The notes below the pieces were generated by a model. It worked only from the letters and a program-made list of their open reading frames with translations, did not search any database and was not told where the DNA came from. The position numbers and the translations under genes are program-made. Shown here one piece after another: positions 53,174-64,000 of a stretch of 64,000 nucleotides of DNA. Within the stretch, counting starts at the first letter, position 1; each line of letters starts with the position of its first letter. Source of the DNA: Pirellulales bacterium (GTDB taxonomy: Bacteria > Planctomycetota > Planctomycetia > Pirellulales > JALHPA01); contig JBGSSS010000005.1 in assembly GCA_041736895.1 (NCBI GenBank), positions 621 through 64,620 on the forward strand, given 5' to 3'.

Positions 53174-53436
53174 TTTGCCCTCTGGGCTTCCAAGTCACGC
53201 AAGATATCAGTTAATGGCCGACCGCCTCCCTCCGCCTCGCGTTTCGCAAGCAACTCGGGCGTCACCCAACTCGGAGTCTTCGCCGGCGCGGGAACAAACG
53301 TCCCCAACACCATACCGCGTTCATCGCAGACGGGTGTTGGGATCGCGGCGCTCAAGAAACTCGCACTCGTTTCACCGAGAACGGTGATTGGCCGTGCAAC
53401 TCCGGGACCGAAGGTGTGCTGACTGAAAGGAACCAT
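53170..53436 (-). CDS. Partner (putative antitoxin) of cassette 2 (A2)
   Basis: [88 protein letters not shown]. Clear paralogue of A1. Confidence 0.6.
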
Positions 53437-53568
53437 GATTCAATTTCCGAAAAAACGACTCTAGGAATACTTCTAATGTTCATCCTAAGTCGAAACAGCC
53501 AAGCGGTCAATTTTTTCTCTCGCGAGGGCGAACCGAAACAGAATTCGCGTGTCTCGAATCGCTGCCGC

Positions 53569-53877
53569 ATGAATATTTTGCCTCAGGGCAAGACACGTCG
53601 GCGATTCAGTTCACTTCTTCGAGCAAGGCACGGTGTCCCATGCAACCGCACGACTTCCAACACGGCATCGACGATCAACACTCCTTTCAACCCGCCGCAT
53701 TTTGAACGGCTCAGCAAACGCCGCCGCGGGTATCCTTCGGAGACCAAGGTGAAACGCGGCCGCCGCATCGTACACGGCGATAAAGAGCTACACGAAAAAC
53801 TCGGCCGGCGCGATCTCTGCCCCTGCGGCAGCGGCAAGCTTTTCAAGAAGTGCTGCCTGCATAGCGACCGCTTTTGA
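53569..53877 (+). CDS. Small basic protein with a C-terminal SEC-C metal-binding motif
   Basis: ORF 53416..53877 trimmed to MNILPQG. The C-terminus is [19 protein letters not shown]. Confidence 0.5.
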
Positions 53878-53971
53878 CGGCATCAATCGCGATGAATACT
53901 TTTAGAGAGTAAAGATATTAGCCCTCGCAGCATGTGCTGCGAGGGCTTCCTCAAAGCTTTCCAATTCCCTC

Positions 53972-55621
53972 TCATCGCGGCGGATAAAATAGCTGGTACG
54001 TTTTGTAGCCCCCGCCGAGATTGGCCGCGTTGTACCCGTGTTGCAGCAAGATACGCGTTGCTAGGTATCCGCGCATGCCAACTTGGCAATACGCGGCAAT
54101 CGGGCGATCTTTTGGAAGTTCGTGCAGTCGGCTGCGCAACTCATCCACCGGGATGTTGACCGCACTGGCGACGCTTCCGTTGGCATGTTCCTGCGCCGTG
54201 CGCACATCGAGCAAGAACGGTTGCTGGTCTGCCGGCTGTGCGAACACCGCTTCGACATCAAATTGCGGGTGATCGCCGCGCAGCAAACCGGCAGCGACAA
54301 AGCCCGCCATGTTGATTGGGTCCTTGGCCGAACCGAATTGCGGAGCGTAGGCCAGTTCCATTTCTTCGAGATCGTACACCGTCATTCCAGCTTGAATCGC
54401 CACGGCGATCACGTCGATCCGTTTGTCGACGCCGGCACCTCCAACCGCCTGTGCTCCGAGGAGTTTGCCGGTTTCGGGCTCAAAGAGAACCTTGAGCGTC
54501 ATCCCCTCGGCTCCGGGATAATAACCGGCATGATGGGCCGGATGAATATAAACTTTGCGAAATGGGCGATTCGCACGGCGCAGTATTTTTTCCGAAGCGC
54601 CGGTCATCCCGGCGGTCAAATTGAAGAACCCCAGGATCGCCGTGCCTTGCGTGCCGCGATATGTCGATGTTCGACCAAAAACATTATCCGCGGCGATGCG
54701 ACCTTGGCGATTGGCGGGCCCGGCCAACGGAACTTGCGTCGGATCGCCCGAGATAAAATCCCTGATCTCCACCGCGTCCCCCACGGCGTAGATATGGGGA
54801 TCACTCGTCAGCATTGACGCGCTGACTCGAATACCGCCGCGGGGACCAACCTCGAGCCCCGCATCGACCGCGAGTTTGTTCTCGGGCCGAACACCAATCC
54901 CTAAAATCACCAATTGCGCTGGCAGACGTTCACCCGACTTCAAACGAACGACAAGATCGGTACCCTGCTGCTCAAAGCCCTCAGCCGATTGTCCAAGCAA
55001 GACGTCGACGCCGCGCGCTTGCAACGCCGCGAGGATTGGCGCGGTCATTTCCTTATCCAACGGCGGCATCACTTGGTCCTGCAACTCGACCAAGGTTGTT
55101 TGCACACCGTGGCGGAGAAAATTCTCAACCAGTTCCAATCCAATAAACCCAGCGCCGACGACAACCGCCTGCTTGATCCCCTTGTCGACGCATGCCTTGA
55201 TGCGATCGACATCTTGCAAATTTCGCAGCGTGAAAATACCCGGCAATTCGAGCCCGGGCACTGGCGGCCGGAGAGGAGCCGCGCCAGGGGCGAGGATCAG
55301 TTTATCGTAACTCTCGTCATATTCGCGTCCCGTCGTGAGGTCCCGCACGCGAAGGGACTTGTTCTGGCGATTGATCGATTCGACGTTTGAATTCGTCCGC
55401 ACGTCGAGCTTGAAGCGTGTGCGCAGCATCTCGGGTGTGGTCACCAGCAGCTTCTTACGCTCCGCAATTTCGCCGCCGACGTAATAGGGCAAACCGCAAT
55501 TGGCAAATGAAACATCAGGTCCGCGTTCGAAGAGGATAATTTCAGCATCTTCGGATAGTCGCCGCGCTCGCGCCGCAGCAGAAGCCCCGCCGGCAACGCC
55601 GCCGACAATTAATAGTTTCAT
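53972..55621 (-). CDS. CoA-disulfide reductase-type FAD oxidoreductase fused to a C-terminal rhodanese domain
   Basis: MKLLIVGGVAGGASAAARARR, redox Cys in SFANCGLPYY, and rhodanese active-site loop CQVGMRG near the C-terminus. Confidence 0.9.
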   Translation of the reverse strand: MKLLIVGGVAGGASAAARARRLSEDAEIILFERGPDVSFANCGLPYYVGGEIAERKKLLVTTPEMLRTRFKLDVRTNSNVESINRQNKSLRVRDLTTGREYDESYDKLILAPGAAPLRPPVPGLELPGIFTLRNLQDVDRIKACVDKGIKQAVVVGAGFIGLELVENFLRHGVQTTLVELQDQVMPPLDKEMTAPILAALQARGVDVLLGQSAEGFEQQGTDLVVRLKSGERLPAQLVILGIGVRPENKLAVDAGLEVGPRGGIRVSASMLTSDPHIYAVGDAVEIRDFISGDPTQVPLAGPANRQGRIAADNVFGRTSTYRGTQGTAILGFFNLTAGMTGASEKILRRANRPFRKVYIHPAHHAGYYPGAEGMTLKVLFEPETGKLLGAQAVGGAGVDKRIDVIAVAIQAGMTVYDLEEMELAYAPQFGSAKDPINMAGFVAAGLLRGDHPQFDVEAVFAQPADQQPFLLDVRTAQEHANGSVASAVNIPVDELRSRLHELPKDRPIAAYCQVGMRGYLATRILLQHGYNAANLGGGYKTYQLFYPPR

Positions 55622-55712
55622 ACACAGACACCTTTGTTCCTTCTCTCAATCGTCAAACTCTAGAACAAATCACTAGCTTTCTGCAATTCAATAGTCTGTC
55701 CCGATTGGAAAG

Positions 55713-56135
55713 TTATTCCCCAATCACCTTAACCAGCACCCGCTTCGCCCGCCGCCCGTCAAACTCACCGTAAAAGATTTGCTCCCATGGGCCGAAATCG
55801 AGCTTGCCCTTCGTGATTGCGACGACGACTTCGCGGCCCATGATTTGCCGCTTCATGTGGGCATCGGCGTTGTCCTCGCCCGTTCGATTGTGGGCATACG
55901 TCTGCGGCGATTCGTCGAACGGCGCGAGCTTTTCGAGCCACCGCTCGTAATCGGCATGCAATCCGGGTTCGTCGTCGTTGATGAAGACGCTGGCCGTGAT
56001 GTGCATCGCATTGACCAAGCACAGCCCTTCTTGCACGCCGCTGCGTTTGACCAGCTCGCTCACGGTATTCGTGATGTTGATGAACCCGCGGCGTGAGGGG
56101 ACGGTGAACGAGAGATGTTCGGTGAGGGATTTCAT
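55713..56135 (-). CDS. yjbQ: YjbQ/UPF0047-family protein (secondary thiamine-phosphate synthase)
   Basis: [23 protein letters not shown]...[20 protein letters not shown]...[13 protein letters not shown]. Confidence 0.9.
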
Positions 56136-56147
56136 AAGAGCACTCGA

Positions 56148-56408
56148 TTAACTTTTCCAGATACCGATGACTTTAATCATGCAATCGAGCGGGGAGAATT
56201 CGCAAACGATATTCAACATATTGACTTGCAAATGAAAGTTTTTTGATTTCGACTCGCTCGCGTATTCTTGCATCAAGGAAGTGATCAGACTATCGACTTT
56301 ATCTGCGGCAGAAGTGATTCGTTGTTTCTCATTTTTGTCGGCACCTGACATCCAAATCACGGATAGATCATCAAGCGCCTGCTTCGTCCAGATGATCGTG
56401 AACTTCAT
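56148..56408 (-). CDS. ParE/RelE-fold toxin-like protein, cassette 3 (T3)
   Basis: MKFTIIWTKQALDDLSVIWM...SAADKVDSLI...SPLDCMIKVIGIWKS. Paralogue of T1. ATGA overlap with A3. Confidence 0.7.
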   Translation of the reverse strand: MKFTIIWTKQALDDLSVIWMSGADKNEKQRITSAADKVDSLITSLMQEYASESKSKNFHLQVNMLNIVCEFSPLDCMIKVIGIWKS

Positions 56409-56620
56409 TCGGGAAACCTCCGTTTCAATTCTGCAATGACTTCCTGTGTCGTATAGATGCCAGGTTCCGTCGCGCGTCGCTCAAGCTCCTCGAGCGTCCA
56501 GGGACAACCAGACATGGGATGAAACATGCCAACAATATGCCCCGTCTCATCAACCACCATCGTCGGAGTTTGCAAGGCAGATGCTTGCGTTGAGAGATTG
56601 CCAAGCGTAATCGTTGACAT
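56405..56620 (-). CDS. Partner (putative antitoxin) of cassette 3 (A3)
   Basis: ORF 56405..56668 trimmed to MSTITLGNLSTQASALQTPTMVVDETGHIVGMFHPMSGCPWTLEELERRATEPGIYTTQEVIAELKRRFPE. It has the same motif order as A1 and A2. Confidence 0.6.
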   Translation of the reverse strand: MSTITLGNLSTQASALQTPTMVVDETGHIVGMFHPMSGCPWTLEELERRATEPGIYTTQEVIAELKRRFPE

Positions 56621-56712
56621 CGATTCACCCAAAAAATGTGATAGCTTCGTAGCCTGCGCCAATCGCAACTGACTCTATTATACCCTGTCGTAACTTGCAA
56701 AGAAAATAATCA

Positions 56713-57315
56713 TTACACCCTCCGTACCACTGCGAACCACGCCCTCGGCCCCCCAACGCTAAAACCGTCATTCGGCTCAGGCCGAACTTCATATCGCGAG
56801 GGCTCAATCGATTCGATCACCCAACCATTAGCAAACGCGGCTTCGATCTCGGCACGCGTGACTCGGCGCGGACCTTCGGTGCCAGGCTCTGCGTCGCTGA
56901 AGCAAAGAAAGAACAATCGCCCGCCGGGTTTGAGTACACTGGCCACACCCGCGACGTAGCGGACTCGATCTTCATCGCCAAAAACATGAAACAACCCGCT
57001 GTCGATCACCGTGTCGAAAACCTCGGGCATTTCCGTTAACGCCAAGGCATCCATGACGAGAAAGGTCGCCGTTAGCCCTCGCTCGATCGCCTTCTGCTTC
57101 GCACGTTTGATCGGCTCTTCGAGAAAGTCGATGCCCGTGACCTTGCGGCCGCGTTGGGCAAAGAAAAGGGCGTTTTCTCCGGTACCGCAGCCCGAATCCA
57201 GGATCGAGCCGGTGATGTGATCAGCGGCGTCGATGAACGCTTTTTGTGGTCGGCCGGTTTCCCAGCGCGGCTGGCCGGCATAAATCGTTTCAAACGTCTC
57301 ACGGCCAATCGACAT
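56713..57315 (-). CDS. Class I SAM-dependent methyltransferase (TehB/TPMT-like size)
   Basis: ILDSGCGTGENALFFAQRGRKVTGIDFLEEPIKRAK. Confidence 0.8.
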   Translation of the reverse strand: MSIGRETFETIYAGQPRWETGRPQKAFIDAADHITGSILDSGCGTGENALFFAQRGRKVTGIDFLEEPIKRAKQKAIERGLTATFLVMDALALTEMPEVFDTVIDSGLFHVFGDEDRVRYVAGVASVLKPGGRLFFLCFSDAEPGTEGPRRVTRAEIEAAFANGWVIESIEPSRYEVRPEPNDGFSVGGPRAWFAVVRRV

Positions 57316-57350
57316 GGCGATTTCTCCTCATTCAGAATTCTTTCAAGCGA

Positions 57351-59147
57351 TTACATCACGCGTTGGCGTCGTCGTTGCAGCGCAAAGAAAACCTCTGCCG
57401 CCGCCACCAAACAAATCAAGTACCACCCTGCCTTGCCTGGCACCTCGCCGTAGCGAATGTATGGACTCAGCTCGCGCGCTGCAGGCGAATCAAACTCCAT
57501 CGCGTTGACCAACAAGATATCCGTCTTACGCCGGGCCCCTTGATTCAGAATTCTTCCCGCTGGATCGATGTTGCCCGAGAAGCCGGTGTTGGCCGCGATC
57601 AAGAGCGGCCGCCGTGCTTCGATCGCGCGGAACACGCCGCAGCGCAGATGCAAATCCAACTCGCTCGACCCAAAGAACCAACCGTCGTTGGTCACGCTCA
57701 CGAGCACATCCGGCGTCTTGTTTTGCGCCGCGAGTTCGAGCATCTGGGCGCGGATCACTTGCGGCATGACGGTTTCGTAACAGATGTTGGGGCTGATGCG
57801 CACCGTGCGACCGGCGGCATTCACGATTTCGTAGCTGCGAGCCTCAACCCCGGCCGATAGTCCGCCGGAGAGATGTGAGACCGAATAAATCCAGGGCAGC
57901 CACTGCCCAAACGGGATGAACTCGCCGAACGGCACCAGATGCCGTTTGTCATAGGGTTCGCGGAGCGCGCCGGTTTGGTCGATGAAGAAGGCCGAATTGA
58001 ATCGCTCATTATTCGGCGGGACAAGTGAATGCCACAGAACACGATCGGAACCCGTCAGGATCGCCGTTCCCACAGGCGCACGTTCACGAAAAAACTTTAG
58101 CAGTGCGTTGCGATATTCCTGCACGATTTCGGCCGGCGGTTTGTTCATGTTCGGCGGAGGCACAAAATCTGGCGCAAACGTCTCTGGCGGAACGCGGAAC
58201 ATCGATTCGGGCCAGACGATAAGCTCGATCTTTTGCGGCAGCGGCTGTATTGTTCGCAGCCGATCGCGCGTGAGTGCGACATTCGGATCCAAGTCCGTTC
58301 CCAAATTCTTAGGGATTTCTTCGCCTGACTTTCGCTCGCGCCAGGCATACGTCAATATTTCGGTCAGCCGTCCGTACTGATTCAAGACCTCGGCGGATGA
58401 CATGGCGCGGTGATCGAAGTACGAATCCACACTTCCTTGAATCAAGCCCGCGGTCAAAATCGGCGACGTCGGCTCGCGCAGCCAAGCATTACCGTACAGA
58501 CACGCGGCCGTAATGATGGCCGCAGTGCAAACGCTGCCAAATGCGAGTTGCAGATTCCGCTGCGGCGACGAGCTATACCACCACGCTACCAGCACGGCGC
58601 TGGGCAGCGTCACTATCCCGCTGACCAGCGATGCACCCGCAAGGTCGGCGCATTGGATCAGCGGGCCAACTTGCCATTGTGTATGACCAAGCCCCGCCAT
58701 GCTGAACCCCGTCAAGACCCAAGTCCGTGCATGCTCTAACCCCATCCAGACCAGCGGTACGGCCACTGGCAGCGGCATGCGCCAACGATGCACCAGCGCG
58801 CGGCATGCGCCGACGAACGCGGGCGTGTAAAATGCCAAGTACCCCGGCAGCGCGAGCCAACTAAAAATCCCGGCCCAATGCGGCAGCGTCAGCCAATACA
58901 AGACGACGCCCCAAAACAGAAACCCGGCCGCGTACAACGACAACCACGGCCGTCGCCCCGGCAACTCCGGCACCGCGATCAACCGCAGCCATGGAATCAA
59001 CGCGACCCAAGCCAGCGGCCACAGATCAAACGGCGGAAAGCTCAGGAACAAGAGGATGGAGCCCAGGCAAGCCTGAAACAACGTCCCCTGCCGCCAGCGC
59101 AGCTCATCGCGGAATTTCAACTTCGCGTCATCCATGACCATCCTCAC
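57351..59147 (-). CDS. lnt: Apolipoprotein N-acyltransferase
   Basis: Multi-TM N-terminal half and a C-terminal CN-hydrolase domain (LIVWPESMF, ICYETVMPQV, TNDGWF). Confidence 0.9.
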   Translation of the reverse strand: MRMVMDDAKLKFRDELRWRQGTLFQACLGSILLFLSFPPFDLWPLAWVALIPWLRLIAVPELPGRRPWLSLYAAGFLFWGVVLYWLTLPHWAGIFSWLALPGYLAFYTPAFVGACRALVHRWRMPLPVAVPLVWMGLEHARTWVLTGFSMAGLGHTQWQVGPLIQCADLAGASLVSGIVTLPSAVLVAWWYSSSPQRNLQLAFGSVCTAAIITAACLYGNAWLREPTSPILTAGLIQGSVDSYFDHRAMSSAEVLNQYGRLTEILTYAWRERKSGEEIPKNLGTDLDPNVALTRDRLRTIQPLPQKIELIVWPESMFRVPPETFAPDFVPPPNMNKPPAEIVQEYRNALLKFFRERAPVGTAILTGSDRVLWHSLVPPNNERFNSAFFIDQTGALREPYDKRHLVPFGEFIPFGQWLPWIYSVSHLSGGLSAGVEARSYEIVNAAGRTVRISPNICYETVMPQVIRAQMLELAAQNKTPDVLVSVTNDGWFFGSSELDLHLRCGVFRAIEARRPLLIAANTGFSGNIDPAGRILNQGARRKTDILLVNAMEFDSPAARELSPYIRYGEVPGKAGWYLICLVAAAEVFFALQRRRQRVM

Positions 59148-59289
59148 TCCCAGAATTCAATACAGAATTTTTGTATCATACTCTTTTGCGATCCTTTGTA
59201 GAATCTCAACGTCGTCGATTCAGGGGAGCGGAGCTCCCGGGCTTCGGAATTCTTCTTCCTCCTTCCTTCATCCTCCTTGATTCCTCTCT

Positions 59290-59910
59290 TTGCTTTCCCC
59301 AATCCCCAACCCCGAATCCCGAACCCCCGCGAAACTCATCCTCGCCTCGCGTTCGCCGCGGCGCAAACAATTGCTCAGCGACGCCGGGTATACCTACGAC
59401 ATCCTCGTGCCGGCGTCGGCGGATGAGTGCGGTTCGTGCAGCCGCGAGAGTCCGGCGGAATTGGTGCTGCGCCTCGCGCTGCAAAAGGCCAAGGACGTCG
59501 CCCGGCAACTCGTTGCCGCGAACCGCAACGGAGTGATCGTTGCTTGTGACACGGTCGCCGAAATCGACGGGCAGGTTCTCGGCAAACCCGAGAACATCGA
59601 CCAGGCGCGGCGCATGCTCACGATGATCCGCGGCCGCGAGCATCGAGTCCTGAGCGGGCTGTGTCTCTGGCAAATTCCAGGCGGCGCACCGTGCACGCAG
59701 CTTGATGTCACACGACTCGTCATGGACCCGATCAGCGACGCGCAGCTCGAAGAGTACCTCGACACTTATGCGTGGGAGGGGAAATCCGGCGCGTTCGGCT
59801 ATCAAGACGGCTGGGATTGGCTGCACATCGTTCAAGGCAGCGAAAGCAACGTTGTCGGGCTGCCGATGGAGTTGCTCGAGCGGATGCTCGAATCACAATC
59901 CGACGCGTAA
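59290..59910 (+). CDS. maf: Maf-family nucleoside-triphosphate pyrophosphatase
   Basis: KLILASRSPRRKQLLSDAGY...GKSGAFGYQDG. TTG start; no better start is available. Confidence 0.85.
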   Translation: MLSPIPNPESRTPAKLILASRSPRRKQLLSDAGYTYDILVPASADECGSCSRESPAELVLRLALQKAKDVARQLVAANRNGVIVACDTVAEIDGQVLGKPENIDQARRMLTMIRGREHRVLSGLCLWQIPGGAPCTQLDVTRLVMDPISDAQLEEYLDTYAWEGKSGAFGYQDGWDWLHIVQGSESNVVGLPMELLERMLESQSDA

Positions 59911-59932
59911 GCGAGGGCGCTAACTTTTTCTC

Positions 59933-59961
59933 TTGCTAGTTCTAATTTTAAGAACTAGAAT
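59933..59961 (+). promoter_or_regulatory. Candidate higBA promoter with an embedded operator palindrome
   Basis: TTGCTA - 17 nt - TAGAAT. The spacer carries CTAGTTCT-aatttta-AGAACTAG (59936-59958). It lies 30 nt upstream of the higB ATG. Confidence 0.45.
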
Positions 59962-59990
59962 CCAAGTTATAAGCAAACAAGGCCAAATTG

Positions 59991-60299
59991 ATGCGTGTCA
60001 TCACTAAAAGAAAATTGGTAAGCTTTTGGCAGGAAAACCCAACTGCTGAAAAGTCGCTGCGTGTTTGGTATCGCAACGTCAACAATAAGCAATTGGCATG
60101 GAAGGATTTTTCCGACCTCAAAGCGACCTACGCTACCGCGAGCAAAGCCGGTGATTGTGTGGTTTTCAATGTAGGCGGTAACAAGTTTCGCGTGATTGCT
60201 AAAATTAACTATCTGACGCATCTTATTTTTGTGCGCGCTGTGCTAACGCACGCGGAGTATGACCTGGATCATTGGAAAGAAGATTGCAACTGTGAATGA
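59991..60299 (+). CDS. higB: HigB-family toxin (RelE-fold mRNA interferase)
   Basis: MRVITKRKLVSFWQENPTAEKSLRVWYRNV...VVFNVGGNKFRVIAKINY...IFVRAVLTHAEYD closely follows the HigB family pattern. Confidence 0.9.
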   Translation: MRVITKRKLVSFWQENPTAEKSLRVWYRNVNNKQLAWKDFSDLKATYATASKAGDCVVFNVGGNKFRVIAKINYLTHLIFVRAVLTHAEYDLDHWKEDCNCE

Positions 60300-60320
60300 A
60301 TCGCTCAGAATGACACGATC

Positions 60321-60746
60321 ATGAAATACCTTACTAAAAACCAACAGACCGAATACCTGGAACTCATCCGCGAGTTTCCTTTGATTCCGATCAAATCCGA
60401 ACGCCATTTAACGGCCGCCGAAGCTATGATCGATCGTTTTCTTAAAGTAAAAAAACTCTCGGGCGGCGCGCGAGCCTATTTCGAAGTCCTCTGCGATCTG
60501 GTGGCCAATTACGAAGATGAACATTACCCCATCCCAATGGCAAGCGACGCCGATTTGCTGGAACACCTCCTCGAAGCCAAAGGCGTCACCCAAAATCAAT
60601 TGCACAAAGAGACCGGCTTGGCAAAGAGCGGCATCTCGGAAATCTTGTCCGGTAAAAAATCGTTCAGCAAAGCGATGATTGCCCCGTTGGCCGAATATTT
60701 TCATGTTCCCACTTCGGTTTTCACCGCAAACATTGGCAAGAAATAA
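60321..60746 (+). CDS. higA: HigA-family antitoxin (XRE-type HTH)
   Basis: It lies downstream of the toxin (reverse TA order typical of higBA). LLEAKGVTQNQLHKETGLAKSGISEILSGKKSFSKAMIAPLAEYFHV. Confidence 0.85.
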   Translation: MKYLTKNQQTEYLELIREFPLIPIKSERHLTAAEAMIDRFLKVKKLSGGARAYFEVLCDLVANYEDEHYPIPMASDADLLEHLLEAKGVTQNQLHKETGLAKSGISEILSGKKSFSKAMIAPLAEYFHVPTSVFTANIGKK

Positions 60747-60821
60747 CTCCGTCCCTCAATATGCTCGCCATCGGCGGCTTTGTTGAGATTATCCAAACAC
60801 CAACTTCTTACGAGTTCCCTC

Positions 60822-62027
60822 ATGGACATTCCCGCTATTCAATCCGCGCTGGCCGAGTTCGGCATCGATGCTTGGCTGCTCGCTGACTTTCGCGGGTCGA
60901 ATCCGCTCGCGCAAAAAGTGGTCGGGATTCCGCCAACCGCTCATCAGACCCGGCGCTGGATGTATTTCATCCCGCGCGTCGGGCAGCCGAAGAAACTTGT
61001 CCATCGGGTCGAGGCCGGCACCCTTGATCATGTTCCGGGTGAGAAACGCGTCTTTCTCAAGTGGCAAGAGTTCGAAGCCGGAGTCGCGTGGCTGCTCGCC
61101 GAGACGCTGATGCAAACCCCAAGGCCCAAGATCGCCATGGAGTACTCGCCGCGCAACGCGATCCCCTACATCTCGCGCGTCGATGCTGGAACCGTCGAAC
61201 TCGTGCGCGCCGTGGGGGGCGAGCCCGTTTCCAGCGGCGACTTGATCCAGCAGTTCGAGGCCACCTGGAACGACGAGCAGTGGGCACTGCATCAAACGGC
61301 CGAACATGTGACCACCTCGGCGTACGACCTGGTCTGGGATTATCTGCGTCAACAGTTGCTCGATAGCAAAACGCCTACCGAATGCGACGTGCAAGACCTG
61401 ATCATGGCGCACTTCAAGCGTCATAACTGCGTCACCGATCATCCGCCCATCATTGGCGTTAACGGCAATGGCGCCGATCCGCATTACTCCCCCGAACGAG
61501 GCAAGGACGCACCAATCCGTCCGGGCGACCTGCTGCTGGTAGATCTTTGGTGCAAGGTCGACCATCCGCTCGGTGTGTACAGCGACCTGACGCGCATGGC
61601 GTATCTCGGCCACGAGGTTCCGCAAAAACACGCCGGCATCTTTGCCGTCGTCGCGATGGCTCGCGACGCCGGGATCGCGCTGGTGCGCGAGCGGTTCTCG
61701 CAGAACCAACCTCTCGCCGGTTGGGAAGTCGACGCCGCCACGCGCCGCGTCATCGAAAACGCCGGCTACGGTGAGGCATTTTGCCATCGCACGGGCCACA
61801 ACATCGGCGCGAGCACCCACGGCAACGGCGCGCACATGGACAATCTCGAAACGCGCGACGAGCGCCGCGTCTTGCGTCGCACGTGCTTCTCGATCGAACC
61901 GGGCATCTACCTGCCCGACCAGAACGCCGGCTACCGCAGCGAGATCAATGTCTTTGTCGACGGCGAAGGGAGCGTCCACGTCACCGGCGGGCAGTTGCAG
62001 AGGGAGATTGTCGCGGTGCTGGGGTAA
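60822..62027 (+). CDS. M24-family metallopeptidase (Xaa-Pro aminopeptidase/creatinase-like)
   Basis: ORF 60780..62027 trimmed to MDIPAIQSAL. LLVDLW, HRTGHNIG and SIEPGIY metal-ligand motifs are present. Confidence 0.85.
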   Translation: MDIPAIQSALAEFGIDAWLLADFRGSNPLAQKVVGIPPTAHQTRRWMYFIPRVGQPKKLVHRVEAGTLDHVPGEKRVFLKWQEFEAGVAWLLAETLMQTPRPKIAMEYSPRNAIPYISRVDAGTVELVRAVGGEPVSSGDLIQQFEATWNDEQWALHQTAEHVTTSAYDLVWDYLRQQLLDSKTPTECDVQDLIMAHFKRHNCVTDHPPIIGVNGNGADPHYSPERGKDAPIRPGDLLLVDLWCKVDHPLGVYSDLTRMAYLGHEVPQKHAGIFAVVAMARDAGIALVRERFSQNQPLAGWEVDAATRRVIENAGYGEAFCHRTGHNIGASTHGNGAHMDNLETRDERRVLRRTCFSIEPGIYLPDQNAGYRSEINVFVDGEGSVHVTGGQLQREIVAVLG

Positions 62028-62095
62028 CCGGCTGCGCGAAAGTTTTTGCCGACACCGCTTCGCGCGATTCATGGATCTTTTCCAATAATTAAGGC

Positions 62096-62118
62096 GAACC
62101 AATTTCGGTCTTTGGTTC
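62096..62118 (+). terminator. Weak hairpin after the M24 gene
   Basis: GAACCAA-tttcggtct-TTGGTTC followed by TCTAAAATATTT. Confidence 0.3.
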
Positions 62119-62236
62119 TCTAAAATATTTGCCGAACGATCCTTTGCATGATACGTTGAATGCGGGAGGCTTAGTCCAGGCTTCCTTCTACTCCTGAAAC
62201 TAGCCTGGGCGATTACCTCCCATTTTTTATTGGTTT

Positions 62237-64000
62237 ATGGCAGACAAACCAAAAATCTCTGTCCGTGACATTCTGTTGACGCAGCGGGGCCTCGCTTTTG
62301 TCTCTACCGCTGGGGTCTCGGCGCAGTATGCCGTGCGGGCTGTCGAGCTAGAACTCGCGGAGCTGGGATATGTCATCTCTAAGCGCCTGCAAGAGCGCCT
62401 GTGTCGTTGCTCCAACGAAGGTTTAACGGCCTTCCGAGCCGAAACGATCAATGCTTTGCAGGAACATCTCGGCGTGCAAAAACACGAGCCGCTGTTCCGC
62501 CAGTTTCCCCAGGGCATCCCCAACGACACCGACGACCTTTGGTGGAAGAAGGTACTCGTCCATTTTCTACAAGCCGAAGATCAGCCGTGTTTGTTCTGCG
62601 GACGCACCGGCACGACTCACGTGCTGAATCCCTGCAAGCATGTGGTTTGCGATTACTGTTTCGACGGCTCGAACTACAGCGCTTGCCCCACTTGCGAGCA
62701 CCATGTTGACCGCAGCTCCCCATTTTTCAAAGCAGAGCCTGATCACCAGCCGGGTAAGGAATCTGTCGACTTTCAGCGGCTCGATCTGGGCGGCGATGAA
62801 ACAAAAGCAGTAAAAGAACTGTTCCTAAGGCTGTGCGAACGAAAACAAGCACTGTCCGAAACGGATCGCACGACGCTCGCGGCTATCGCGCGCGAATACA
62901 AAACTCAAATCCTCGCATGGCTGCCGGCAACAATACCCGTGCGCGAAAACGTCGCAATTGTCTTCGGCACACTGTTTCAAGAATGTCCCTCCGCCGAAGT
63001 CTTGCCGATTGCCAAGCGATATCTGTTAACAGCGACCGATGTGTTGCGTTTCCTCGCGGTCTATTCCGGCTGCGATGGCTCGCTGCTGCAGGAAACGATT
63101 CACAAACAAGTCGGAGTTCAAGAAAAAACGAGCCGATTTTGGAGTAAAGTCGCGAAATTTTTTGGCGACAATACCCCGCCAGCGCGGATCCACACCGTCA
63201 CTGTTTCGCTGCGCGTGAATCGTTTCAAAGTCGCGAAGCTCTCGCGCTCGCTCCGCCGCGCGCTGCTGGAAATCCTCAATCAACTGCCGCGCGAAGCGCT
63301 CTTCGAAGACATGCTCCGGCATCGCTCGTACTGGGTTTGGGCGGGCGAGTTCTTGCACCCTGGCGAATACGCCAAGCGCTACCCGCGCGTGGCGGAAGCG
63401 TTTCAAATCGTGCGCAAGAAGAACGAGGCCGGGGTCCCTGCGCCGAAATTCCAGACGTGGTACAGCCGGATTGAATCCGCGGCCAAGAATCGCGACATCG
63501 AATCCTTGGCCGCAACCTTGAGCGAACGCCCCGGCGAGTTCGCGCGGCGAATTGATTTCGCGCTGCGCATTGCCCAGGGCCAGTCAGCTCATCTAGAGCT
63601 CATCACGCAGTGTTTCCTGGCGCTGCTGCCGAAGATGGCGACCCCGGTGCTGCTCACGCTTTCGGCGCATTTGCCGAAGCGCATCGAACGAGCCAAGATC
63701 CGTGTTTATTGGCCCAAAGCCCGAGTTGCGATGGGTGTATCCGCGCCGGATCAACGCCAGTTGCTTACCTGGCAAGGAATTCAGCAACTCGTCCAGGCAG
63801 TCCGTGGCGAGTTGCTGGAGCGTTTTGCGAAGAAACCCCGCTTTACTCAAGGCATCGTCGATACCGAGCTAGCCGCGATTCCCGTTCCGTTTAATGAACG
63901 AACGGCGAGTCCGAGCGCGGTGACGCTTCCCCGCGGAGCGGCAGTGCAAGTCGAACTGCAAAAAACAATCCGTCTCTTCATGCATTGGTGCGAACCGGAA
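62237..64000 (+). CDS. Large protein with a canonical C3HC4 RING-finger motif, 3-prime end outside the window (>=588 aa)
   Basis: Not in the ORF track. The frame is open from TAG 62201-62203 to the last base and the first ATG is 62237 (MADKPKISVRDILLTQRGLAF...). Residues 118-153 are CLFCGRTGTTHVLNPCKHVVCDYCFDGSNYSACPTC. Codon usage resembles neighbouring genes. Confidence 0.75.
   Translation, partial: MADKPKISVRDILLTQRGLAFVSTAGVSAQYAVRAVELELAELGYVISKRLQERLCRCSNEGLTAFRAETINALQEHLGVQKHEPLFRQFPQGIPNDTDDLWWKKVLVHFLQAEDQPCLFCGRTGTTHVLNPCKHVVCDYCFDGSNYSACPTCEHHVDRSSPFFKAEPDHQPGKESVDFQRLDLGGDETKAVKELFLRLCERKQALSETDRTTLAAIAREYKTQILAWLPATIPVRENVAIVFGTLFQECPSAEVLPIAKRYLLTATDVLRFLAVYSGCDGSLLQETIHKQVGVQEKTSRFWSKVAKFFGDNTPPARIHTVTVSLRVNRFKVAKLSRSLRRALLEILNQLPREALFEDMLRHRSYWVWAGEFLHPGEYAKRYPRVAEAFQIVRKKNEAGVPAPKFQTWYSRIESAAKNRDIESLAATLSERPGEFARRIDFALRIAQGQSAHLELITQCFLALLPKMATPVLLTLSAHLPKRIERAKIRVYWPKARVAMGVSAPDQRQLLTWQGIQQLVQAVRGELLERFAKKPRFTQGIVDTELAAIPVPFNERTASPSAVTLPRGAAVQVELQKTIRLFMHWCEPE
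62588..62695 (+). other. RING-finger signature C-x2-C-x11-C-x-H-x2-C-x2-C-x8-C-x2-C
   Basis: Read directly from the translation of 62237.. (C118, C121, C133, H135, C138, C141, C150, C153). Confidence 0.8.

What the first reader, a model, noticed from the sequence alone, without database searches (positions are those of the whole stretch)
62237..64000. A 588-codon frame missing from the ORF track encodes a bacterial protein with textbook C3HC4 RING-finger spacing
Seen in sequence: frame 2 is open from TAG 62201-62203 to the last base of the window. The first ATG is at 62237 and the frame was presumably dropped from the track because it has no stop. Residues 118-153 read C-LF-C-GRTGTTHVLNP-C-K-H-VV-C-DY-C-FDGSNYSA-C-PT-C. 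This is C-x2-C-x11-C-x1-H-x2-C-x2-C-x8-C-x2-C. Established knowledge: this satisfies every spacing rule of the eukaryotic RING consensus C-x2-C-x(9-39)-C-x(1-3)-H-x(2-3)-C-x2-C-x(4-48)-C-x2-C, the cross-brace two-zinc module of E3 ubiquitin ligases. RING fingers are rare in bacteria. As far as I recall they have only been catalogued computationally (Pfam Prok-RING families), including one family described as fused to helical repeats and a C-terminal TerD domain. I know of no biochemical characterisation. Inference: the more than 400 aa after the RING look helical. The last residues in the window (VTLPRGAAVQVELQKTIRLFMHWCEPE) resemble the first strands of a TerD-type beta-sandwich. No E1, E2, ubiquitin-like or JAB gene lies upstream (M24 peptidase, HigBA), so any partners must lie beyond the window.
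Basis: partly seen in the sequence, partly recalled or inferred. Interest (0 to 1): 0.8.

Follow-up and report, generated by a model that had tools for sequence, protein, structure and literature searches.

The report
Known bacterial RING–TerD protein, function untested
The open frame is the first two thirds of an 862-residue bacterial protein that carries a genuine RING zinc finger and belongs to an already catalogued but never tested family, whose RING-less relatives in large phages sit among tRNA genes.

Summary
The frame is open from 62201 to the window end, starts at ATG 62237, and residues 118-153 match the C3HC4 RING spacing. No match occurred in 100,000 shuffles. An identical 862-aa protein on a public contig supplies the missing end.

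It is a full member of NCBIfam NF041916 (MXAN_6230/SCO0854 family, 866 bits, cutoff 600) and of Pfam Prok-RING_4 (E 4.5e-18). The kind is therefore already known.

- All eight zinc ligands are invariant in 40 homologues.
- About 25 relatives have lost ligands 1, 2, 5 and 6 but keep 3, 4, 7 and 8. This is the cross-brace partition.
- Profile and fold searches return only RING E3 domains for this segment.
- Residues ~565-740 adopt a TerD fold, although the Pfam scans list no TerD match.
- No E1, E2, Ubl or JAB gene, nor any conserved neighbour, lies near the gene in 79 genomes.

RING-less homologues are common in large phages. In 55 of 80 viral loci the gene lies in a same-strand tRNA array, sometimes beside a CCA-adding enzyme, RtcB or tmRNA.

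Best guess: an RNA- or ligand-sensing core with an accessory RING that recruits a partner. E3 ligase activity is unproven.

The parts
62028..62236 (+). 209-nt intergenic region between the M24 peptidase stop and the ATG of the RING gene
   Evidence: Gene calls on the identical contig L001. No sigma-70-like promoter match and no Rfam match at E<=1.
62237..64000 (+). Codons 1-588 of an 862-codon gene. The stop lies 825 nt beyond the window, at L001 11446.
   Evidence: NF041916 scores 555.8 bits for the truncated product and 866.3 bits for the full one, against a cutoff of 600.
62261..62470 (+). N-terminal alpha/beta domain (residues ~9-78). It is also present in the RING-less phage homologues.
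   Evidence: AF2 model pLDDT 79-90. The family HMM aligns positions 16-112 to phage proteins.
62483..62572 (+). Conserved linker (residues 83-112). Predicted flexible, yet it carries invariant H83, P85, L86, R88, F90, P91, T98, W102, L107 and Q112.
   Evidence: Invariant columns in alignment A1. pLDDT about 40. The FP pair is also invariant in the phage and RING-less alignment A5.
62588..62695 (+). C3HC4 RING finger (residues 118-153). Ligands are C118, C121, C133, H135, C138, C141, C150 and C153.
62774..63916 (+). Mostly helical middle domain (residues ~180-560) with two long beta-hairpin strands (286-296 and 317-327). Rich in invariant arginines.
   Evidence: AF2 secondary structure and pLDDT mostly 85-95. 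Invariant R202, R271, R329, R337, R340, R341, R361, R393, R431, R437, R444, R482, R489, R507 and R529. No significant PDB fold or sequence match.
63929..64000 (+). First strands (residues 565-588) of the TerD-fold beta-sandwich, which continues to about residue 740 beyond the window
   Evidence: Foldseek versus PDB gives TerD structures 3ibz, 2kxt, 2qng and 2qz7 as the top 5 hits, TM(target) 0.62-0.68. hhalign versus TerD gives E 2.4e-4.

Best explanation
The frame encodes the first 588 of 862 residues of a soluble cytoplasmic protein. It is an ordinary member of the MXAN_6230/SCO0854 family (NCBIfam NF041916, Pfam Prok-RING_4).

**Shown: domain order**
- N-terminal alpha/beta domain.
- Conserved FP-containing linker.
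- A true two-zinc cross-brace C3HC4 RING.
- An arginine-rich helical domain of about 380 residues.
- A TerD-fold beta-sandwich with an invariant acidic motif (D595, D597, G632, D633, G642, E645, D648, D719, D729).
- A small C-terminal alpha/beta domain.

**Shown: the RING is accessory.** The conserved core is the N-domain plus the helical domain plus TerD. The RING is degenerate or missing in some relatives and absent from nearly all phage homologues.

**Inferred: mechanism**
- The TerD pocket binds a metal (Ca2+) or a nucleotide-like ligand.
- The arginine-rich helical domain holds an anionic client, most plausibly tRNA-like RNA. The reason is that phage versions of the core are embedded in tRNA arrays next to a CCA-adding enzyme, RtcB and tmRNA.
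- In the chromosomal bacterial versions, the RING recruits a protein partner encoded elsewhere. That partner could be an E2-like enzyme or another factor, coupling the sensing to modification, turnover or assembly of a target.

**My probabilities**
- Family membership: 0.97.
- Genuine two-zinc RING: 0.9.
- TerD fold: 0.9.
- Core acts on RNA/tRNA: about 0.35.
- RING works as a ubiquitin-like E3: about 0.2.
For: **Membership**
- NF041916 scores 866.3 bits against a cutoff of 600, covering profile positions 2-842.
- Prok-RING_4 matches profile positions 1-46 of 46, E 4.5e-18.
- 713 word-index homologues. 3,108 50%-identity cluster representatives at E<=1e-3 and 1,558 at E<=1e-30.

**RING**
- All eight ligands are invariant in 40 sequences of 52-63% identity.
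- Of 232 sufficiently complete relatives, 192 keep all eight ligands. 24-25 have lost ligands 1, 2, 5 and 6 while keeping 3, 4, 7 and 8. None shows the reverse pattern. This is exactly the cross-brace site partition.
- Three sequences have H4 replaced by Asp, which is also a zinc ligand.
- PDB profile hits are almost all RING E3s, led by BIRC7 at E 0.0022.
- All top 50 Foldseek hits of the domain model are RINGs: c-Cbl, BIRC7, cIAP2, RNF8, IDOL, PML and XIAP.

**TerD**
-.
- PGAP labels RING-less plasmid homologues 'TerD family protein'.
- A source names a BFVD structural homologue 'Putative tellurium resistant like protein'.

**Core versus accessory RING**
- Phage proteins align to the family HMM at positions 16-112, 167-297 and 331-763, skipping the RING.
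- 74 of 80 viral homologues have no RING.

**tRNA link**
- 153 IMG/VR contigs encode a relative.
- 55 of 80 loci have tRNAs within 6 kb, 50 have at least three, 36 have one within 500 bp, and 29 have tRNAs on both sides.
- All 421 tRNAs are on the gene's strand. 24 of 43 lineages (clustered at 60% identity) show the association.
- A CCA-adding enzyme is a neighbour in 5 lineages. It is also adjacent in RcXuper and RpAliso, where a permuted tmRNA lies upstream. RtcB is nearby in Weasels2.

**Other**
- TerD is known to bind Ca2+ (PMC8123226). TerD has been proposed to recognise nucleotide derivatives (PMC7159879).
- The protein looks soluble: the maximum 19-residue Kyte-Doolittle hydropathy is 1.59.
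Against: - **No experiment.** No experimental data exist for any member.
- **No sequence-level TerD or TROVE match.** The Pfam scans (E up to 10 on 40 members and on the isolated domain) list no TerD or TROVE match, and neither does a PDB profile search. hhalign probability against TerD is only 43%.
- **Modest RING model confidence.** pLDDT is 51-59 in the full model and 63 in the isolated model. AF2 may also reproduce RING geometry from learned patterns.
- **The tRNA link is indirect.** It comes from phage homologues sharing only about 25-33% identity over the C-terminal half.
- **Phage tRNA arrays are also accessory-gene hotspots.** HNH endonucleases and IS200/605 transposases are the other recurrent neighbours.
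- **No bacterial RNA context.** Bacterial RING genes are not near tRNAs above background (10 tRNAs in 1.45 Mb). No Rfam RNA was found beside them.
- **Related phages share synteny.** The locus counts are therefore not independent.
- **Arguments against canonical E3 action.** No E1, E2, Ubl or JAB gene is nearby. Glu154 sits where BIRC7 has its linchpin Arg (alignment; the residue's role is from established knowledge).
Confidence: 0.55

Rival explanations
1. It is a canonical RING E3 ligase. The RING binds an E2-like enzyme charged with a bacterial ubiquitin-like protein, both encoded elsewhere in the genome. The helical and TerD domains select the substrate.
For: - Closest sequence and fold matches are catalytically active E3 RINGs of the IAP, Cbl and RNF8 type.
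- Pro151 after ligand 7 is invariant, and a hydrophobic residue (mostly Phe120) sits at C1+2. These are canonical E2-contact positions by established knowledge.
- Bacterial E1/E2/Ubl systems do exist, and rare RING E3s have been predicted (PMC10557695).
Against: - No E1, E2, Ubl or JAB gene lies in the window, downstream on L001, or as a conserved neighbour in 79 genomes.
- Glu154 is near-invariant at the linchpin position, where BIRC7 has Arg.
- The RING is dispensable in many family members, including almost all phage ones.
- No PADLOC defence model matches.
Confidence: 0.2
2. It is a Ter-type stress or conflict sensor. The TerD domain senses Ca2+ or a nucleoside-like alarm signal, as proposed for ter operons. 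The protein acts in phage exclusion or xenobiotic stress. Phages carry RING-less copies for superinfection exclusion or counter-defence.
For: - TerD fold with a conserved acidic motif.
- Ter systems have been linked to phage resistance, and standalone TerD genes have been noted in actinobacterial jumbo phages (PMC7824862).
- A TerB gene lies 2 kb from the Deinococcus plasmid homologue.
- A HigBA toxin-antitoxin pair lies next to the gene in the window.
Against: - No ter genes (TerB, TerC, TerY, TelA) are conserved near the gene.
- No PADLOC hit.
- This reading does not explain the strict same-strand embedding in phage tRNA arrays beside CCA-adding enzymes.
Confidence: 0.2
3. It is a secreted effector that mimics host RING E3 ligases to hijack a eukaryotic ubiquitin system.
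For: - Pathogen effectors with RING or U-box domains are known (PMC11354881; bioRxiv 10.1101/2024.11.19.624306, listed).
- Myxobacteria and Oxalobacteraceae do encounter eukaryotic microbes.
Against: - The family is spread across free-living Myxococcota, Streptomyces, Oxalobacteraceae, Planctomycetota and Acidobacteriota, and its core occurs in phages.
- No hydrophobic N-terminal signal is present.
- The 862-aa architecture is conserved, with a bacterial and phage core that functions without the RING.
Confidence: 0.03
4. The Cys/His pattern is a chance match, or a non-RING zinc ribbon, in a non-coding or frameshifted frame.
For: None found.
Against: - 0 of 100,000 shuffles match the pattern.
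- Hundreds of full-length homologues carry invariant ligands.
- An identical public contig shows the intact 862-codon gene.
- Double zinc ribbon (DZR) models match only 8 of 40 members, at E>=0.82.
Confidence: 0.01

Closest known systems
MXAN_6230/SCO0854 family RING domain-containing protein (NCBIfam NF041916); Pfam PF14447 Prok-RING_4, which I recall (unchecked) was defined from Burroughs, Iyer and Aravind 2011 (a paper the library does not hold)
   Same: Everything measurable matches: full-length equivalog-level score, domain order, invariant RING ligands, and the TerD-fold C-terminal region.
   Different: Nothing distinguishes it. It is a 52-63% identical member, and its closest genome relatives are Pirellulaceae and Acidobacteriaceae MAGs.
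Eukaryotic IAP-type RING E3 domains (BIRC7, cIAP2, XIAP; Pfam zf-C3HC4_3)
   Same: - C3HC4 ligand order.
- Short ligand 6 to ligand 7 loop.
- Pro after ligand 7.
- Best profile and fold matches.
   Different: - Glu instead of the linchpin Arg after ligand 8.
- No C-terminal dimerisation tail.
- Placed internally in an 862-aa bacterial protein.
- No linked E2 or ubiquitin.
TerD tellurite-resistance proteins (K. pneumoniae TerD 2KXT; S. coelicolor 3IBZ, 2QZ7; S. avermitilis 2QNG)
   Same: - Beta-sandwich fold (TM 0.62-0.68).
- 'DLD' motif.
- A 'GD(L/N)R...DG..E' motif, aligned by hhalign.
   Different: - Not listed as a match in the Pfam scans.
- Fused into a multidomain protein.
- Not in a ter operon.
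- Several acidic motif positions are replaced (N79 to L, G82 to A, D87 to A, D88 to T, in 2KXT numbering).
Operon-encoded prokaryotic RING E3s (Prok-RING_1 type; the Caldiarchaeum E1/E2/RING cascade cited in PMC10557695)
   Same: A prokaryotic cross-brace RING.
   Different: Those are encoded in operons with E1, E2, Ubl and JAB/Rpn11 genes. This gene stands alone, with no such neighbours.
Ro60/Rsr (TROVE) RNA quality-control proteins and their phage homologues
   Same: Analogy by context only. Phage members of this family sit with tRNAs, RtcB and a CCA-adding enzyme, which is the kind of setting described for the ROT/TROVE RNA-repair platform (PMC7824862).
   Different: - No TROVE or vWA match by Pfam or by PDB profile search.
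- No Ro60 among the top Foldseek hits.
- No Y-RNA or other Rfam RNA next to the bacterial genes.

Membership tests
NCBIfam NF041916 (MXAN_6230/SCO0854 family) | Whole-protein HMM score at or above the curated cutoff of 600 bits, with end-to-end coverage | tested here: met
   866.3 bits, residues 10-861 on profile positions 2-842 of 842. The window fragment alone scores 555.8 bits.
Pfam PF14447 Prok-RING_4 | HMM score above the gathering threshold of 27 bits | tested here: met
   65.3 bits, E 4.5e-18, profile positions 1-46 of 46. All 40 aligned homologues match.
RING finger (C3HC4 cross-brace) | Eight Cys/His ligands with consensus spacing | tested here: met
   C-x2-C-x11-C-x-H-x2-C-x2-C-x8-C-x2-C at residues 118-153.
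RING finger (C3HC4 cross-brace) | Ligands conserved in homologues | tested here: met
   All eight are invariant in 40 sequences. 192 of 232 broader relatives keep all eight.
RING finger (C3HC4 cross-brace) | Cross-brace pairing: site 1 uses ligands 1, 2, 5, 6 and site 2 uses ligands 3, 4, 7, 8 | tested here: met
   The evidence is indirect. 24-25 natural variants have lost ligands 1, 2, 5 and 6 together while keeping 3, 4, 7 and 8, and none shows the reverse or a sequential split. The domain model matches only RING structures. The model's confidence is modest.
RING finger (C3HC4 cross-brace) | Binds two zinc ions | not testable with these tools
   Needs metal analysis of the purified domain.
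RING-type E3 ligase | E2 binding and stimulation of Ub/Ubl transfer | not testable with these tools
   Sequence proxies are mixed. Pro151 is invariant and Phe120 is mostly conserved, but Glu154 occupies the linchpin position.
Prokaryotic ubiquitin-like conjugation operons (Bil/Bub, E1-E2-RING-JAB) | E1, E2, Ubl or JAB genes in the same neighbourhood | tested here: not met
   None within 8.8 kb upstream or 2 kb downstream. No conserved neighbour in 79 genomes. The recurrent neighbours are kinases, sigma-54 activators, ECF sigma factors, AraC, TetR and LysR, at scattered positions.
TerD family | TerD beta-sandwich fold | tested here: met
   The top five PDB Foldseek hits are TerD structures: E 2e-4 to 1.5e-3, probability 1.00, TM(target) 0.62-0.68 over about 175 columns.
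TerD family | Match to the Pfam TerD model or to TerD sequences | tested here: not met
   No TerD hit is listed at E<=10 for the isolated domain or for 40 full proteins. The PDB profile search found nothing. Only hhalign detects it, at E 2.4e-4 and probability 43%, over the first half.
TerD family | Ca2+ binding by the acidic motifs | not testable with these tools
   The aligned 'DLD' and 'GD...DG..E' residues are 79-80 of 80 conserved, even in phage homologues. Binding itself is untested.
TROVE/Ro60 | TROVE helical-repeat ring plus a vWA domain | tested here: not met
   No TROVE or vWA Pfam hit in 40 members at E<=10. No Ro60 in the PDB profile hits or in the top 50 Foldseek hits. A fold search on the isolated helical domain could not be run.
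Known anti-phage defence systems (PADLOC-DB 2.0) | Match to a defence-system protein model | tested here: not met
   0 families at E<=1.

The most novel reading that the evidence does not exclude
The family is an RNA (tRNA) surveillance or repair platform. Its TerD pocket and arginine-rich helical domain sense damaged tRNA-like RNA or a nucleotide signal. In chromosomal bacterial versions, the RING couples that sensing to protein modification or turnover through an unlinked E2-like partner or an E2-independent route. That would make it the first housekeeping RING ligase of bacteria. Phages would carry the RING-less core in their tRNA arrays to protect or repair their own tRNA supply.
Probability: 0.1. 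Interest if true: 0.8.

Novelty: already known. Interest (0 to 1): 0.38.

Why it matters
The finding as posed, a bacterial C3HC4 RING protein fused to helical and TerD domains, is a textbook member of a family that Pfam and NCBI already curate. It adds no new kind of object.

What stays open is the function of a large family. It has about 3,100 clusters at 50% identity, spread across Myxococcota, Actinomycetota, Oxalobacteraceae, Planctomycetota, Acidobacteriota and many large phages.

- **Natural half-RING variants.** They keep exactly zinc site 2, which gives in-family evidence for the cross-brace and shows the RING is an add-on.
- **Phage tRNA context.** RING-less phage homologues are consistently embedded in same-strand tRNA arrays, next to a CCA-adding enzyme, RtcB and tmRNA. 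This points to an RNA-related role for the conserved core.

If bacterial RING activity were shown, it would bear on the origin of RING E3 ligases.

Tried and rejected
**Literature**
- Burroughs et al. 2011, Anantharaman et al. 2012 and Daigle et al. 2015 are not held. Statements about their content rest on memory only.
- Literature searches for SCO0854, MXAN_6230 and Prok-RING found no experimental work.

**Negative sequence and model searches**
- A sequence-level TerD link was sought with a domain profile against PDB and Pfam. Both were negative. Only hhalign against four PDB TerD sequences gave a weak match.
- PADLOC gave no hit.
- No Rfam RNA, including Y RNA or tRNA-like families, lies near the bacterial genes. 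This held at gathering thresholds for seven loci and at E<=1 around this gene.
- No promoter match, and terminator matches were at the chance level.

**Neighbourhood analysis**
- Conserved bacterial neighbours were sought twice with different ORF sets. Only abundant regulator and kinase paralogues appeared, at scattered positions.
- Protein neighbours in viral loci were mostly mobile elements: HNH endonucleases and IS200/605 transposases.

**Limits**
- The RING-only AF2 run raised confidence only to pLDDT 63.
- A chance or frameshift artefact was considered and rejected.
Full report
**1. The observation**

Translation of window 62201-64000 in the stated frame gives TAG followed by 599 sense codons. 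The first ATG is at 62237.

The RING regular expression occurs once in the six-frame translation of the whole window. It occurs in 0 of 100,000 shuffles of this 588-residue sequence. The ORF is missing from the ORF list because ORFs that run off the source are not listed.

A protein 100% identical over all 588 residues exists in the public collection (P0001, 862 aa). Its Logan contig L001 is base-for-base identical to window 53380-64000. It shows the gene ending 825 nt beyond the window.

**2. What it is**

The full protein scores 866.3 bits on NCBIfam NF041916, 'MXAN_6230/SCO0854 family RING domain-containing protein'. This is an equivalog model with a cutoff of 600, and it is matched end to end. 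Pfam Prok-RING_4 matches over its whole length at E 4.5e-18. zf-C3HC4_3 sits at its threshold. It is therefore a regular member of a curated family.

The family is large:
- 713 hits in the word-indexed search.
- 3,108 representatives of 50%-identity clusters at E<=1e-3, and 1,558 at E<=1e-30.

Genome hits come from the following:
- Myxococcota (Nannocystis, Minicystis, Plesiocystis, Kofleriaceae, Polyangia).
- Oxalobacteraceae (Massilia, Duganella, Undibacterium, Janthinobacterium).
- Planctomycetota, Acidobacteriota, Verrucomicrobiota and Hyphomicrobiaceae.
- On plasmids or megaplasmids: Streptomyces, Kitasatospora and Variovorax.

**3. Is the zinc cluster a RING?**

Four lines of evidence agree.

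- *Conservation.* All eight ligands are invariant in a 40-sequence alignment at 52-63% identity.
- *PDB profile search.* A profile of the family returns, for this segment, almost only RING E3 domains. BIRC7 is best (E 0.0022), followed by CGRRF1, cIAP2, cIAP1, RNF4, XIAP, Cbl and RNF168.
- *Fold search.* An AF2 model of residues 105-177 (pLDDT 63, core about 72) matches only RING domains in its top 50 Foldseek hits. Probabilities are 0.75-0.99 and rmsd about 2-4 A over about 45 columns.
- *Natural variants.* I aligned 273 relatives to the family HMM. Of the 232 that were complete enough to score, 192 keep all eight ligands. 24-25 have lost ligands 1, 2, 5 and 6 together while retaining 3, 4, 7 and 8, for example '...LSCGH.....CPIC...'. 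None shows the opposite pattern or a 1-4 / 5-8 split. About 7 have no RING at all. Losing exactly ligands 1, 2, 5 and 6 is what a cross-brace predicts, because those four form zinc site 1. It is not what two sequential zinc knuckles predict.

There are caveats. On a crude NJ tree these variants are not many independent events (at most about 7 transitions). The AF2 model confidence is also modest.

Double-zinc-ribbon models match only 8 of 40 members, at E>=0.82.

**4. The rest of the protein**

The full-length AF2 model has pLDDT 80 and pTM 0.78. It shows these regions:

| Residues | Feature |
|---|---|
| 9-78 | N-terminal alpha/beta domain |
| 81-112 | Low-confidence but highly conserved linker (H83, P85, L86, R88, F90, P91, T98, W102 ... 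invariant) |
| 118-153 | RING |
| ~180-560 | Mostly helical domain with a long beta-hairpin |
| ~565-740 | Beta-sandwich |
| 745-862 | Small alpha/beta domain |

The five best PDB Foldseek matches of the model are all TerD structures: 3ibz, 2kxt, 2qng, and 2qz7 chains A and B. They have TM(target) 0.62-0.68 over about 175 columns.

At the sequence level, the scans list no TerD match. An hhalign comparison with four PDB TerD sequences does align residues 561-652 to TerD 2-95 (E 2.4e-4, probability 43%). It superposes 'TDLDLS' on TerD 'FDLDAS', and 'GDLRDAPWPDGATE' on 'GDNRTGEGDGDDE'.

PGAP calls the RING-less plasmid homologues 'TerD family protein'.

The helical domain has no significant sequence or fold match. 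In particular, no TROVE or Ro60 match was found with the tools available. It carries about 15 invariant arginines. No 19-residue stretch exceeds a mean Kyte-Doolittle hydropathy of 1.59, so I see no membrane segment.

**5. Surroundings**

Upstream genes on the identical contig, in window coordinates:

| Window coordinates | Strand | Gene |
|---|---|---|
| 53972-55621 | - | CoA-disulfide-reductase-like flavoprotein with a rhodanese domain |
| 55713-56135 | - | YjbQ |
| 56713-57315 | - | TPMT-family methyltransferase |
| 57351-59141 | - | Lnt |
| 59290-59910 | + | Maf |
| 59991-60299 | + | HigB |
| 60321-60746 | + | HTH antitoxin |
| 60822-62027 | + | M24 peptidase |

Downstream lie a convergent 387-aa protein with only faint SGNH-like similarity, and a carbamoyltransferase. 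There is no E1, E2, Ubl or JAB gene.

Across 79 genome loci with 10-kb flanks, no neighbour is conserved. The most recurrent neighbours occur in at most 11 loci. They are Ser/Thr kinases, sigma-54 activators, ECF sigma factors, and AraC, TetR and LysR regulators, at scattered distances and on both strands. The gene stands alone.

PADLOC has no model for it.

**6. An unexpected lead from phages**

tblastn against GenBank phages found homologues of roughly the C-terminal half to two-thirds of the protein. The phages were:
- Rhodococcus phage Weasels2.
- Rhodobacter phage RcXuper.
- Ruegeria phage RpAliso.
- Mycobacterium phage WXIN.
- Xanthomonas jumbo phages Xoo-sp13 and XacN1.
- Salicola phage SCTP-2.

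These proteins are about 700 aa long. They align to the family HMM over the N-domain, the helical domain and TerD, and skip the RING. Weasels2 gp266 has no cysteine at all. BFVD fold search confirms full-length structural homologues in Campylobacter, Lactobacillus and Salicola phages.

Their genomic settings:
- *Weasels2.* The gene lies inside the tRNA cluster, with RtcB 3 kb downstream.
- *RcXuper and RpAliso.* It is flanked by tRNAs, preceded by a permuted tmRNA gene, and followed directly by a tRNA nucleotidyltransferase.
- *Xoo-sp13.* A nucleotidyltransferase lies upstream.

An IMG/VR scan with a RING-less alignment found 153 viral contigs, many of 100-460 kb. In the 80 loci kept:
- 55 have at least one tRNA within 6 kb.
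- 50 have at least three.
- 36 have one within 500 bp.
- 29 have tRNAs on both sides.
- All 421 tRNAs are on the same strand as the gene.
- After collapsing at 60% identity, 24 of 43 lineages show the association.

The only recurrent non-mobile protein neighbour is a CCA-adding enzyme, in 5 lineages. The others are HNH endonucleases and IS200/605 transposases.

Of the 80 viral homologues, 74 lack the RING and 3 keep only site 2. Meanwhile D595, D597, G632, D633, G642, E645, D648, D719, D729, W584, R579, R437 and G433 are conserved in 79-80 of 80.

The bacterial RING genes are not enriched for nearby tRNAs: 10 tRNAs in 1.45 Mb. They have no Rfam RNA beside them.

A jumbo-phage survey mentions standalone TerD genes in actinobacterial phages and ROT/TROVE RNA-binding proteins in some jumbo phages. 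It does not connect them to this family (PMC7824862).

**7. How it most likely works**

*Shown:*
- A conserved core of N-domain, helical domain and TerD sandwich, with an invariant acidic pocket.
- A RING that is an accessory insertion present in the chromosomal bacterial branch.
- No linked ubiquitin-system genes.

*Inferred:*
- The TerD pocket binds Ca2+ or a nucleotide-like ligand. TerD binds Ca2+ according to PMC8123226. It has been proposed to recognise nucleotide derivatives (PMC7159879).
- The arginine-rich helical domain binds an anionic client, plausibly tRNA-like RNA, given the phage context.
- The RING recruits a protein partner.

Whether that partner is an E2 is open. Pro151 and a mostly hydrophobic C1+2 residue fit an E2 surface. 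But Glu154 replaces the linchpin Arg of BIRC7 (alignment; the residue's role is from established knowledge). The RING is also dispensable in much of the family.

My estimates are about 0.35 that the core acts on RNA and about 0.2 that the RING is a ubiquitin-like E3. An equally likely alternative (about 0.2) is a Ter-type stress or conflict sensor.

**8. Comparison with what is known, and novelty**

The protein is a member of NF041916 and Prok-RING_4, and all testable membership criteria are met. It works like, but is not shown to be, an IAP-type RING E3. It has the TerD fold but fails the Pfam TerD model. It is not part of an E1/E2/Ubl operon. It is not detectably TROVE.

[quoted passage not shown] I found no experimental work on this family in the held library.

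The finding itself is therefore already known as a kind. The half-RING variants and the phage tRNA-array context are, as far as I could check, not described, but they are leads rather than results.

**9. Verdict**

Novelty is 'already known'. Interest is moderate-low (0.38). This is a correct identification of a curated, uncharacterised family, with a new and testable functional lead from its phage relatives.

Noticed in passing
P0221, P0243, P0262, P0205, P0211, P0157, P0166 and others (relatives): About 25 family members keep only RING ligands 3, 4, 7 and 8 (zinc site 2) and have lost 1, 2, 5 and 6. About 7 have no RING at all. Three have His4 replaced by Asp.
   Followed up: yes
L083 3218-5296; L084 3098-5260; L085 3900-6056; viral loci L089-L168: RING-less homologues of about 700 aa are widespread in large phages. 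In 55 of 80 IMG/VR loci they sit inside same-strand tRNA arrays, sometimes beside a CCA-adding enzyme, RtcB or a permuted tmRNA.
   Followed up: yes
window 56713-57315 (-): A TPMT-family methyltransferase lies 5 kb upstream of this TerD-domain gene. Bacterial Tpm enzymes methylate tellurite and selenite (from memory). It is not conserved in other loci, so this is probably coincidence.
   Followed up: partly
   Followed up: no
P0204 (781 aa), P0257 (803 aa): These relatives have no RING aligned, yet they score 754 and 711 bits on NF041916 (cutoff 600). Automatic annotation would therefore name them 'RING domain-containing'.
   Followed up: partly
L007 7937-9847 (+): In a Polyangia MAG, an RtcR-type sigma-54 activator (a regulator of RNA-repair operons) ends 154 bp upstream of the RING gene on the same strand. 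This was seen in one locus only.
   Followed up: partly
L012, L028, L029, L031, L033, L036 (bacterial loci): Of the 10 tRNA genes found within 10 kb of bacterial RING genes, 7 are tRNA-Pro, and one of those lies inside the gene and is probably a false call. The overall tRNA density is at background level.
   Followed up: no
L135 4412-4486; L143 9193-9269: The tRNA arrays in two viral loci include a tRNA with a CTA anticodon (an amber suppressor, labelled tRNA-Pyl by ARAGORN).
   Followed up: no
L082 12387-12806 (-): On a Deinococcus plasmid, a TerB-family gene lies about 2 kb from the family homologue that PGAP labels 'TerD family protein'.
   Followed up: no
window 62483-62572 (residues 83-112): The linker before the RING is predicted disordered (pLDDT about 40), yet it holds ten invariant residues, including an FP pair that is also invariant in phage homologues. 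It may be a docking motif.
   Followed up: partly
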